A stretch of 64,000 nucleotides of DNA from NCBI RefSeq assembly GCF_013122565.1, contig NZ_CP053258.1; one strand, 5' to 3'. The position numbers and the translations under genes were made by a program. The stretch is from Escherichia coli (GTDB taxonomy: Bacteria; Pseudomonadota; Gammaproteobacteria; Enterobacterales; Enterobacteriaceae). The notes beneath the pieces are model-generated. The model saw only the letters and a list, made by a program, of their open reading frames with translations. It was not told where the DNA came from and searched no databases. Shown piece by piece: positions 58,980-59,681 of the stretch (its first letter is position 1; each line of letters starts with the position of its first letter).

Positions 58980-59681
58980 TCAGAACGTTTTCTCGTTGGG
59001 TTGCCAGCGACAGAAATCAGAGTTTGCCACCAACAGTAATTGCGAACCTTCGGGCGCTTCCAGCCATGCCACGCTGACATCAACAGAAGAGCGGCTCTGG
59101 CGGCGCTCGATATGCGCTATCGCCTGCGAATCTAAATCAGGTTTAATGGTTTGCCCTTCGCAGGTGGTCACGGTCTGTTCCATCGCATGCCAGCGCCCCT
59201 GGCGCAGCACGACTCTCCCCTGACGTAAGGCATCGCTAATCTGGCGGATCTGATCAGCACGATAACGGTATAAATCGATTTGGTCGTTAGAAAGCTGCTG
59301 CTTTTCCCCATCGGATTCACGTTGCATAAAGCTCAGATCGCCGCGATCGTCAAAACGCGCGCGAATGTTCACCGGCGGTTTGCTGTAAACATTGATATTG
59401 ATGAGCGTAAGGTTATCGCCCTGCCAGCGATACTCTCGCGTGGTGGTATCGCCACTGCGCCACGGGCTAAACACGGCAAGCAGATGCACATTATCGCCGC
59501 TGTCTTTTCGCCAGATACGTACCGCGCCCTGGTCTTCAGCAAATCCACTGGCGGTAAAGGGAGGAAGTGAAGAGTTGTGACTACAGGCAGTGAGAAACAG
59601 AGCGCCTGCCAGCATCAATGATCGACGCCAGAAAGACAAAAGGGGTGAAACCACCCCTTCGTTAAAACTGTTCACTGCCAC
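58980..59681 (-). CDS. yjaH: DUF1481-family putative lipoprotein
   Basis: ORF with lipobox LFLTAC. The upstream part of the ORF (59616-59681) contains the hupA terminator hairpin, so the true start is probably near 59615-59640. Confidence 0.8.
   Translation of the reverse strand: MAVNSFNEGVVSPLLSFWRRSLMLAGALFLTACSHNSSLPPFTASGFAEDQGAVRIWRKDSGDNVHLLAVFSPWRSGDTTTREYRWQGDNLTLININVYSKPPVNIRARFDDRGDLSFMQRESDGEKQQLSNDQIDLYRYRADQIRQISDALRQGRVVLRQGRWHAMEQTVTTCEGQTIKPDLDSQAIAHIERRQSRSSVDVSVAWLEAPEGSQLLLVANSDFCRWQPNEKTF
59630..59660 (-). terminator. Rho-independent terminator downstream of hupA
   Basis: Minus-strand RNA forms aaggggtggtttcacccctt hairpin followed by uugucuuucu. Confidence 0.55.

What the first reader, a model, noticed from the sequence alone, without database searches (positions are those of the whole stretch)
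59615..59681. hupA terminator lies inside the 5' extension of the yjaH ORF, implying a shorter yjaH
The ORF-track yjaH begins at 59681, but residues 8-16 of that translation are encoded by the hairpin and U-tract that look like the hupA intrinsic terminator. A lipoprotein-type signal peptide begins right after it, either at a TTG (MSFWRRSLMLAGALFLTAC) or at the ATG at 59615. The biologically used start is therefore probably downstream of 59640.
Basis: inference. Interest (0 to 1): 0.3.

Follow-up and report, generated by a model that had tools for sequence, protein, structure and literature searches.

The report
hupA terminator inside yjaH's first codons
The transcription terminator of the E. 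coli histone-like gene hupA really does lie inside the first 15 codons of the next gene, yjaH, but comparison across many species suggests yjaH is translated through it rather than starting after it, so the current annotation is probably about right.

Summary
On the minus strand, a 9-bp G+C-rich hairpin (59660-59639) and T-tract follow hupA and are encoded by codons 8-16 of the yjaH ORF. Published Term-seq puts a very strong, Rho-independent RNA 3' end exactly there (K-12 4200605 = window 59636). The stem shows compensatory changes across 80 Enterobacteriaceae species.

One correction: 59681 is only the mechanical ORF start. K-12 and PGAP annotate the second GTG (59675, 231 aa), which is also upstream of the hairpin.

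The inference of a shorter yjaH is not supported:
- An in-frame GTG/ATG next to the hupA stop is present in 80/80 species.
- The proposed TTG (59639) is TCG in 9 species whose yjaH is still under strong purifying selection, and they have no other usable start after the hairpin.
- ATG 59615 is present in only 12/80.
- Indels between the upstream start and the hairpin's 3' arm are always multiples of 3.
- Any start just behind the hairpin would still need terminator read-through.

Against this:
- The extension shows no protein-level constraint.
- Distant homologues have short canonical signal peptides.
- One lineage does start immediately after the T-tract.

No translation-start data could be retrieved. 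Best estimate: about 0.6 for the upstream GTG start(s), about 0.2 for the TTG.

The parts
59688..59960 (-). hupA (HU-alpha) coding sequence. Its stop codon TAA is at 59690-59688, in the same frame as yjaH in Escherichia.
   Evidence: ORF list; annotation of K-12 and two other genomes.
59679..59681 (-). GTG, codon 1 of the mechanical yjaH ORF, 6 nt after the hupA stop. Candidate true start (233 aa).
   Evidence: GTG 73 / ATG 2 / GTA 5 of 80 species. A homologous GTG/ATG lies 2-7 nt after the hupA stop in L088, L089, L090, L092-L095. It is the only canonical start left in L013.
59673..59675 (-). GTG, codon 3, the start annotated in K-12 (4200566) and by PGAP (231 aa).
   Evidence: GTG 75 / GTA 1 / GCG 4 of 80 species. 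It is the only upstream start in Salmonella arizonae/diarizonae and Leclercia, where codon 1 is GTA.
59663..59683 (-). Block GCGTGGCAGTGAACAGTTTTA, nearly invariant at the nucleotide level including third codon positions. Function unexplained; it possibly pairs in part with the hupA tail.
   Evidence: Per-column counts. pS is 0.17 here vs 0.5-0.67 elsewhere. Pair counts show no covariation.
59639..59660 (-). hupA intrinsic-terminator hairpin GAAGGGGUG-GUUU-CACCCCUUU (codons 8-15 of the ORF).
   Evidence: Conserved with compensatory changes.
59629..59638 (-). U-rich tail UGUCUUUCUG. The mapped RNA 3' end is at 59636 (K-12 4200605).
   Evidence: Term-seq supplementary files of PMC7815308.
59637..59639 (-). 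Its first base is the last stem position, and the terminated hupA RNA ends 1 nt after it.
   Evidence: TTG 71 / TCG 9 of 80 species. Its SD-like AAGGGG is the 5' arm of the hairpin, 12 nt away, and the unfolding cost is 23.4 kcal/mol.
59613..59615 (-). Rejected.
   Evidence: ATG in 12/80 and GTG in 5/80 species; otherwise ACG, GCG, TGG and others. It would leave only 10 uncharged residues before the Cys.
59622..59630 (-). Codons 18-20 (W-R-R), the positively charged end of the signal-peptide n-region. This is the first place where coding-type variation appears.
   Evidence: TGG is invariant in 79/79; codon 19 is CGT/CGC (synonymous); third-position entropy rises from here on.
59583..59594 (-). 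Lipobox L-T-A-C (codons 30-33), the predicted signal peptidase II site with Cys33 as the lipidated residue.
   Evidence: Translation. [LI]-[TSA]-A-C is conserved in all 80 species. A Cys-containing lipobox is invariant across the DUF1481 family (C19 of alignment A1).
58980..59681 (-). yjaH ORF. The DUF1481 domain covers residues 44-229.
   Evidence: Pfam PF07356, E = 9e-73; ORF list.

Best explanation
yjaH most likely starts at the GTG pair 6 and 12 nt after the hupA stop codon (window 59681 and/or 59675), so its first roughly 16 codons are the hupA 3' region and terminator read as protein.

Proposed sequence of events:
1. Most hupA transcripts end at the hairpin (shown).
2. A minority read through and carry yjaH (inferred: there is no room and no motif for a promoter after the terminator).
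3. On those transcripts, ribosomes start at the GTGs. These have no Shine-Dalgarno sequence, so initiation is probably by termination-reinitiation coupling to the heavily translated hupA (inferred).
4. Ribosomes translate through the hairpin. The product is a lipoprotein precursor with an unusually long, unconstrained n-region (M..NSFNEGVVSPLLSFWRR), a hydrophobic core and the lipobox LTAC. The whole leader is removed at Cys33 (inferred from sequence).

The terminator thus acts as a fixed attenuator that keeps YjaH far below HU-alpha.
For: Terminator:
- Hairpin found by scan and fold.
- Covariation in the stem.
- Term-seq 3' end at 4200605, intrinsic and not Rho-dependent.

Upstream start:
- Codon 1 or codon 3 is GTG/ATG in 80/80 species. 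Codon 1 has become ATG twice (L009, L058).
- Nine species (Kluyvera, C. amalonaticus group) have TCG at codon 15 and no canonical start leaving at least 14 residues before the Cys. Their mature yjaH has dN/dS of 0.03-0.11 at pS of about 0.5.
- L013 has lost both codon 3 and codon 15 as starts.
- L093 has an in-frame TGA immediately followed by GTG, and no usable start after the hairpin.
- Dickeya (L088) and Proteus (L086) have an ATG upstream of the hairpin, in frame.
- In 10 abutting lineages the yjaH frame is open back to a start 2-14 nt after the hupA stop (GTG/ATG in 9 of 10). In the 20 control frames this occurs 3 times, always with TTG.
- Indels between that start and the 3' arm are +/-3 nt only (37, 40 or 43 nt; L072 has +3 in the loop). 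1-nt indels occur freely between the TAA and the first GTG.

Against the TTG: its SD-like element is sequestered in the stem at 12-nt spacing, and it has the highest unfolding cost (23.4 kcal/mol).
Against: - No experimental start-site data could be retrieved.
- Codons 2-17 show no protein-level selection (pN/pS 0.8). Their conservation is at the nucleotide level, which is also what an untranslated 3' UTR plus terminator would show.
- Distant DUF1481 proteins with unambiguous ATG starts have 15-21 residue signal peptides, whose N-termini align with the TTG position.
- L091 proves that a start 3 nt behind the T-tract is workable in this family.
- Six of the ten abutting lineages in the frame test were chosen because their protein calls already contained the hairpin translation. 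That is a selection bias, so the frame test is weaker than the raw numbers suggest.
- The GTGs have no SD (-1.4 kcal/mol).
- The long forms fail the rule of thumb that a lipoprotein signal peptide has K/R within its first seven residues (PROSITE PS51257 rule, quoted from memory).
Confidence: 0.6

Rival explanations
1. One reading: in E. coli translation starts at TTG 59639, at the foot of the terminator, giving MSFWRRSLMLAGALFLTAC..., a textbook 18-residue lipoprotein signal peptide. The open frame upstream is then a by-product of a short, conserved 3' UTR.
For: - TTG is present in 71/80 species.
- This N-terminus matches the length and charge pattern of distant homologues with unambiguous ATG starts.
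- The extension has pN/pS of about 0.8 and frozen synonymous sites.
- L091 has an ATG 3 nt after the T-tract with an in-frame stop upstream. L089 has a canonical ATG signal peptide 24 nt after the hairpin.
- NCBI annotates the post-hairpin TTG in Morganella.
Against: - The TTG is lost (TCG) in 9 species with no replacement start and an intact, selected gene. The T at that position is in any case explained by the U-tract.
- It has the worst initiation context of all candidates.
- It does not explain the strictly 3n indels or the 80/80 retention of an upstream in-frame GTG/ATG.
- It still requires terminator read-through.
Confidence: 0.2
2. Both starts are used: the GTG(s) on ribosome-coupled read-through transcripts and the TTG as a minor independent start. 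The two precursors differ only in a leader that is cleaved off, so the mature protein is the same.
For: - Each single start position is dispensable in some lineage: codon 1 is lost in 5 species, codon 3 in 5, codon 15 in 9. Every species keeps at least two of the three except L013, which keeps only codon 1.
- The mature product is identical either way (lipobox).
Against: - There is no direct evidence.
- The TTG context is very poor.
- It adds a hypothesis without explaining anything the upstream start does not.
Confidence: 0.12
3. Start at ATG 59615 (MLAGALFLTAC...).
For: It is the only ATG in the region.
Against: - It is ATG in only 12/80 species.
- It would leave 10 residues with no positive charge before the Cys.
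- It excludes W18-R19-R20, which show coding-type conservation (TGG invariant, synonymous CGT/CGC).
- It has no SD.
Confidence: 0.02

Closest known systems
Intercistronic intrinsic terminators acting as fixed attenuators inside operons (partial read-through sets the ratio of upstream to downstream product)
   Same: A strong Rho-independent terminator sits directly after a very highly expressed gene. The downstream gene has no visible promoter of its own and can only be reached by read-through.
   Different: Here the terminator is not in a spacer. It lies inside the downstream reading frame, which starts 6-12 nt after the upstream stop, and that in-frame overlap is conserved across several Enterobacterales families.
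Ribosome-dependent attenuation of pyrBI and rph-pyrE in E. coli (from established knowledge): a ribosome translating up to or through the attenuator hairpin close behind RNA polymerase prevents termination
   Same: An ORF that runs through a terminator hairpin, so a closely following ribosome could in principle block hairpin formation.
   Different: No evidence here for regulated coupling such as NTP-sensitive pausing. The ORF is a real 233-codon gene, not a leader peptide. The antitermination effect is speculation and was not tested.
Translational coupling by termination-reinitiation between adjacent genes
   Same: The stop-to-start distance is 6 or 12 nt. The downstream start is a GTG without SD (-1.4 kcal/mol). 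In the E. coli fold it is paired with the upstream gene's last codons.
   Different: The masking helix is not supported by covariation. Dependence on hupA translation is untested. The Adams et al. filter implies a TSS within 200 nt upstream of the 3' end, and such transcripts could lack the hupA start.
ORF-internal 3' ends catalogued by Term-seq (Adams et al. 2021, PMC7815308)
   Same: This exact 3' end is in their tables, classed as 'internal' to yjaH at +39.
   Different: It is not discussed in their text (one search does not list that paper among those holding 'yjaH' in the main text). It is simply the hupA terminator, not a regulatory premature stop within an independent yjaH transcript.

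Membership tests
Rho-independent (intrinsic) terminator | G+C-rich stem-loop immediately followed by a U-rich tract | tested here: met
   9-bp stem with 5 G-C pairs and a 4-nt loop, then UGUCUUUCUG. The 66-nt stretch containing it folds at -20 kcal/mol.
Rho-independent (intrinsic) terminator | RNA 3' ends map in the U-tract in vivo and are not Rho-dependent | tested here: met
   Term-seq 3' end at K-12 4200605 (window 59636) with 102,752 reads, Rho score 0.74 ('No') and intrinsic score 5.76 against a threshold of 3.0 (PMC7815308 supplements).
Rho-independent (intrinsic) terminator | Structure maintained in evolution | tested here: met
   99.3% of cells paired. C-G to U-A and G-C to U-A double changes occur at two pairs. 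0 of 500 shuffles reach the observed covariation score. Slid registers give 51-80% pairing.
Bacterial lipoprotein signal peptide (signal peptidase II type) | Lipobox [LVI][ASTVI][GAS]C after a hydrophobic core | tested here: met
   L-T-A-C at codons 30-33, preceded by SLMLAGALF. [LI][TSA]AC is present in all 80 species. The Cys is invariant in the family alignment.
Bacterial lipoprotein signal peptide (signal peptidase II type) | Short positively charged n-region with K/R in the first ~7 residues and Cys at position 15-35 (PROSITE PS51257 rule, from memory) | tested here: inconclusive
   - TTG version: R5, R6 and Cys19, so it passes.
- GTG versions: Cys31 or Cys33 pass, but there is no K/R in the first 7 residues.
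- ATG version: Cys11, so it fails.
This is a heuristic, not proof of the start.
Bacterial lipoprotein signal peptide (signal peptidase II type) | Lipid modification and globomycin-sensitive processing | not testable with these tools
   No experiment found. A literature search for yjaH and DUF1481 gave nothing relevant.
Twin-arginine (Tat) signal peptide (considered because Tat leaders have long n-regions) | Nearly invariant consecutive Arg-Arg in an S/T-R-R-x-F-L-K-like motif | tested here: not met
   The second Arg is replaced in many species: WRH in the Citrobacter freundii group, WRG in Enterobacter, WRQ in Leclercia, and also S/K/A/M/C. Distant homologues have single K/R residues.
Translationally coupled gene pair (termination-reinitiation) | Downstream start within a few nt of the upstream stop and lacking its own strong SD | tested here: met
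   The GTGs are 6 and 12 nt after the TAA. The best anti-SD duplex is -1.4 to -1.5 kcal/mol. The start lies 2-14 nt after the hupA stop in all abutting lineages.
Translationally coupled gene pair (termination-reinitiation) | Downstream translation depends on translation of the upstream gene | not testable with these tools
   Needs hupA start or stop mutants with a YjaH reporter.
Ribosome-mediated attenuation (pyrBI / pyrE type) | Translation through or up to the hairpin reduces termination | not tested
   Only the geometry is compatible, since the ORF crosses the hairpin. There are no read-through measurements. The DirectRNA-seq window counts (379 upstream, 401 downstream) are not interpretable.

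The most novel reading that the evidence does not exclude
The hupA terminator is a dual-use element. Because yjaH's reading frame begins next to the hupA stop and runs through the hairpin, a ribosome that reinitiates on yjaH close behind RNA polymerase would prevent hairpin formation. Read-through, and therefore YjaH synthesis, would then be licensed by yjaH's own translation. This would be a constitutive, leader-less form of ribosome-mediated antitermination, conserved in frame across several Enterobacterales families. The unexplained invariant block AACAGUUUUAAC would be part of this device.
Probability: 0.15. Interest if true: 0.55.

Novelty: new member of a known kind. Interest (0 to 1): 0.3.

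Why it matters
- **Gene model.** The case tests an annotated start in the reference genome of E. coli K-12 (b4001) against a tempting 'fix'. The comparative evidence says the fix would probably be wrong.
- **General lesson.** 'A terminator inside an ORF means the start is misannotated' is not a safe rule. Here the terminator-in-ORF layout is conserved in frame across Enterobacteriaceae, Pectobacteriaceae, Morganellaceae and Hafniaceae.
- **Re-reading of published data.** One of the strongest 'ORF-internal' 3' ends in the published E. coli Term-seq tables is simply the hupA terminator.
- **Scale.** If yjaH really is translated through the hairpin, it is a compact natural example of an attenuator embedded in a signal-peptide coding region. 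That is useful for thinking about how a low-abundance lipoprotein is slaved to one of the most highly expressed genes in the cell. It remains a local annotation and architecture point for an uncharacterised protein, not a new mechanism.

Tried and rejected
- **ATG 59615 as start:** rejected on conservation and signal-peptide geometry.
- **GTG at codon 10 (59654), on top of the 5' arm:** E. coli-specific. It is GCG in most species because that position co-varies with the stem.
- **Codon 17 as start:** it is NTC in nearly all species (GTC, ATC, TTC), never a canonical start.
- **Tat signal peptide as the reason for a long n-region:** the second Arg is not conserved.
- **A yjaH promoter between the terminator and the signal peptide, or in hupA's 3' half:** none in the consensus scan. 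A relaxed scan gave only weak, non-conserved matches such as TAAGAT over the hupA stop.
- **A helix pairing the hupA tail with the two GTGs, to explain the frozen block and the coupling:** present in the E. coli fold and 86-100% pairable in its cores. But both sides are invariant, so there is no covariation, and RNAalifold does not recover it. Kept only as a hint.
- **Known RNA family or 3'UTR sRNA at the junction:** no Rfam match at E<=1.
- **Direct start-site evidence:** the Ribo-RET preprint, the Saito 2020 paper and the Dar & Sorek paper have no supplements held. The TRAINSPOTTER and Salmonella riboproteogenomics supplements do not contain yjaH. The Thomason 2015 TSS tables are not held.
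- **Profile scan with all distant homologues:** failed for lack of a conserved stretch. The successful scan kept only the 80 closest species, so distant lineages had to be fetched one by one (12 look-ups, all used).

Full report
**What is there.**

The window region 58.9-60.2 kb is the E. coli yjaG-hupA-yjaH / zraP locus. hupA (59960..59688) and yjaH both lie on the minus strand. Reading the minus strand from the hupA stop gives:

TAA GAT TGC GTG GCA GTG AAC AGT TTT AAC GAA GGG GTG GTT TCA CCC CTT TTG TCT TTC TGG CGT CGA TCA TTG ATG CTG GCA GGC GCT CTG TTT CTC ACT GCC TGT.

- The mechanical ORF starts at the first GTG (59681, 233 aa).
- K-12 (b4001, 4200566) and PGAP annotate the second GTG (59675, 231 aa).

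**Is the terminator real?**

By pattern alone it is not above chance: 1 site found against 1.3 expected in shuffles, and a fold z-score of -1.8. Two independent lines settle it.

- Conservation. In 81 sequences (67 distinct) from 80 Enterobacteriaceae species, 99.3% of stem cells are paired. Two pairs show compensatory double changes: C-G to U-A in Escherichia and Pseudocitrobacter, and G-C to U-A in Salmonella and Klebsiella pneumoniae. Sliding the register drops pairing to 51-80%.
- Experiment. The Term-seq tables of Adams et al. 2021 (PMC7815308) list a 3' end at MG1655 4200605(+) with 102,752, 27,872 and 14,561 reads in the three tables. The Rho score is 0.74 ('No') and the intrinsic-terminator score is 5.76 against a threshold of 3.0. 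The authors class it as 'internal' to yjaH, 39 nt after the annotated start. That coordinate is window 59636, i.e. ...CACCCCUUUUGU-3', one nucleotide past the TTG codon.

**Where does yjaH start? Within Enterobacteriaceae.**

I extracted the junction from 80 species, with mature YjaH 71-99% identical to E. coli.

- The frame is open from the hupA stop region to the lipobox in all 80.
- Start-codon occupancy: codon 1 is GTG 73 / ATG 2 / GTA 5. Codon 3 is GTG 75 / GTA 1 / GCG 4. Codon 15 is TTG 71 / TCG 9. Codon 23 is ATG 12 / GTG 5 / other 63. Codon 17 is NTC.
- At least one upstream GTG/ATG is present in 80/80 species.
- A canonical start after the hairpin that still leaves at least 14 residues before the Cys (and so includes the conserved W-R-R) is present in only 71/80.
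- The nine exceptions are six Kluyvera species and three of the Citrobacter amalonaticus group. All have full-length genes. In Kluyvera the mature part has dN/dS of 0.03-0.11 at pS of about 0.5, so the gene is functional there.
- In L075, L078 and L079 the first canonical codon after the hairpin is 4 residues before the Cys. In L013, codon 3 (GTA) and codon 15 (TCG) are both dead and only GTG-1 remains.
- These lineages must translate through the hairpin. Because the upstream GTGs are conserved everywhere, the simplest reading is that the whole group does.
- 1-nt indels are common between the TAA and the first GTG (junction length 131 vs 132 nt). From the first GTG to codon 18 the only indel is +3 nt, in the hairpin loop of Yokenella (L072).

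**Where does yjaH start? Across the family.**

DUF1481 is a small family: 114 cluster representatives at E<=0.001. The yjaG-hupA-DUF1481 synteny holds in the distant members I could fetch.

- Separate start. In Pantoea sp. IMH (L085) and Ca. Erwinia impunctatus (L087), the hupA terminator is followed by a spacer of about 75-80 nt containing an in-frame stop, then an ordinary ATG and a canonical 17-20 residue signal peptide.
- Abutting terminator, frame-controlled. Where the terminator abuts the signal-peptide coding sequence, the yjaH frame is open back to a start 2-14 nt after the hupA stop in 10 of 10 lineages (GTG/ATG in 9). These are E. coli, L090, Dickeya L088, Proteus L086, Morganella L084, Edwardsiella L094, and L089, L092, L093, L095. 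In the other two frames this occurs 3 times in 20, always with TTG.
- The distance from that start to the end of the CCCC arm is 37, 40 or 43 nt, always congruent to 1 mod 3.
- L093 has an in-frame TGA directly followed by GTG and no usable start after the hairpin. Dickeya and Proteus have an ATG at the upstream position.
- Caveats. Six of these ten lineages were picked because their protein calls already contained the 'G-A-x-x-P-L-L' hairpin translation, so the test is biased towards open frames. One lineage (L091) has an in-frame TGA before the hairpin and its ATG 3 nt after the T-tract. L089 has a canonical ATG leader 24 nt after the hairpin. Starting right behind the terminator is therefore possible in this family.

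- Codons 2-17 have pN/pS of 0.8. Their synonymous divergence is 0.17, against 0.51 in the signal peptide and 0.67 in the mature part.
- Third positions of AAC-AGT-TTT are invariant in 76-79 of 79 sequences, and the sites that do vary are mostly non-synonymous. So this stretch is constrained as RNA or DNA, not as peptide.
- That pattern fits an untranslated 3' UTR. It also fits a translated but functionally irrelevant n-region laid over a terminator.
- The TTG version (Cys19, R5, R6) looks like the family's typical leader. The GTG versions have no K/R in the first seven residues.

**Energetics.**

None of the candidates has a good ribosome-binding site.

- The GTGs have no SD (-1.4 kcal/mol) but sit 6 and 12 nt after the stop of a very heavily translated gene, the usual geometry for termination-reinitiation.
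- In the E. coli fold the GTGs pair with the last hupA codons. That helix is pairable in most species but is unsupported by covariation.
- The TTG is the worst placed. Its only SD-like element is the 5' arm of the hairpin, at 12-nt spacing, and opening the site costs 23.4 kcal/mol.

**A point of logic.**

The terminated RNA ends 1 nt after the TTG. No promoter-like sequence lies between the terminator and the signal peptide. Any yjaH mRNA therefore comes from transcription that passes the terminator, whichever start is used.

The filter used by Adams et al. implies that a mapped TSS lies 21-200 nt upstream of the 3' end. I could not retrieve its position.

**Conclusion.**

- Confirmed: the hairpin is the hupA intrinsic terminator, and it lies inside the annotated yjaH coding sequence.
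- Not supported: the inference that yjaH is therefore shorter.
- My estimate is about 0.6 that translation starts at the GTG pair (59681 and/or 59675) and runs through the terminator, about 0.2 that the TTG at 59639 is the main start in E. coli, about 0.12 that both are used, and about 0.02 for ATG 59615.
- The mature lipoprotein (Cys33 onward) is the same in every case.
- Between the two GTGs, the first (59681) corresponds to the start conserved in distant lineages. The annotated second one (59675) is the only one available in Salmonella arizonae/diarizonae and Leclercia. I cannot choose between them.

**Comparison with what is known.**

The element is an ordinary intrinsic terminator, and its 3' end is already in a published table. 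Nothing I could find discusses the in-frame embedding of that terminator in the first codons of the downstream gene, or its conservation across at least four Enterobacterales families.

It works like an intercistronic attenuator. It has the geometry, but no tested property, of ribosome-dependent attenuation as in pyrBI or rph-pyrE. I file it as a new member of a known kind, of modest interest.

**Unresolved.**

- The near-invariant block GCGTGGCAGTGAACAGTTTTA (59683..59663) has no satisfactory explanation, and no Rfam family matches.
- The DirectRNA-seq window counts around the 3' end (379 upstream, 401 downstream) show no drop and cannot be interpreted without the raw data.

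Noticed in passing
window 59663-59683 (- strand): A 21-nt block GCGTGGCAGTGAACAGTTTTA between the hupA stop and the terminator is almost invariant in 80 species, including synonymous positions (pS 0.17 vs 0.5-0.67 in the rest of yjaH). Pairing with the hupA tail might explain the GCGUGGCAGUG part. Nothing explains AACAGUUUUAAC.
   Followed up: partly
window 59688-59690 and 59681 (- strand); protein P0002: In Escherichia the hupA TAA is in the same frame as yjaH, two codons before the first GTG. One metagenome protein call (300 aa, HU domain plus DUF1481) is a hupA-yjaH fusion. In genera with a 131-nt junction the two genes are in different frames.
   Followed up: no
window 58976-58982: The stop codons of yjaH (-) and zraP (+) are convergent and only 1 nt apart, with no terminator-like site found between them. 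The pair is listed as a convergent 'excludon' candidate in PMC12288877.
   Followed up: no
K-12 4200405-4200585 (window about 59656-59836, - strand): The filtering rule of Adams et al. 2021 implies that a dRNA-seq TSS (Thomason et al. 2015) lies 21-200 nt upstream of the terminator 3' end. That would be inside the 3' half of hupA or at the junction. Its position could not be retrieved, and no good sigma-70 motif is visible.
   Followed up: partly
K-12 4200389 (window about 59852, - strand): A second, much weaker Term-seq 3' end (about 790-1440 reads) maps inside the hupA coding sequence.
   Followed up: no
L014 (contig CACSKA010000020.1): A contig labelled 'Chryseobacterium sp. 18061' carries a typical Enterobacteriaceae hupA-yjaH junction (79% YjaH identity). 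It is presumably a mislabelled or contaminated assembly.
   Followed up: no
window 58412-58978 (+ strand): The mechanical ORF for zraP (188 aa from 58412) is much longer than the annotated zraP (K-12 4201263..4201688, 141 aa). The signal peptide MKRNTKIALVMMAL begins well inside the mechanical ORF.
   Followed up: no
L094 (Edwardsiella tarda) 1000-1006; L095 1000-1002: In two distant lineages an in-frame ATG sits inside the loop of the hupA terminator hairpin. Gene callers use it (or the adjacent GTG in Edwardsiella) as the DUF1481 start, although an in-frame GTG also lies next to the hupA stop.
   Followed up: partly
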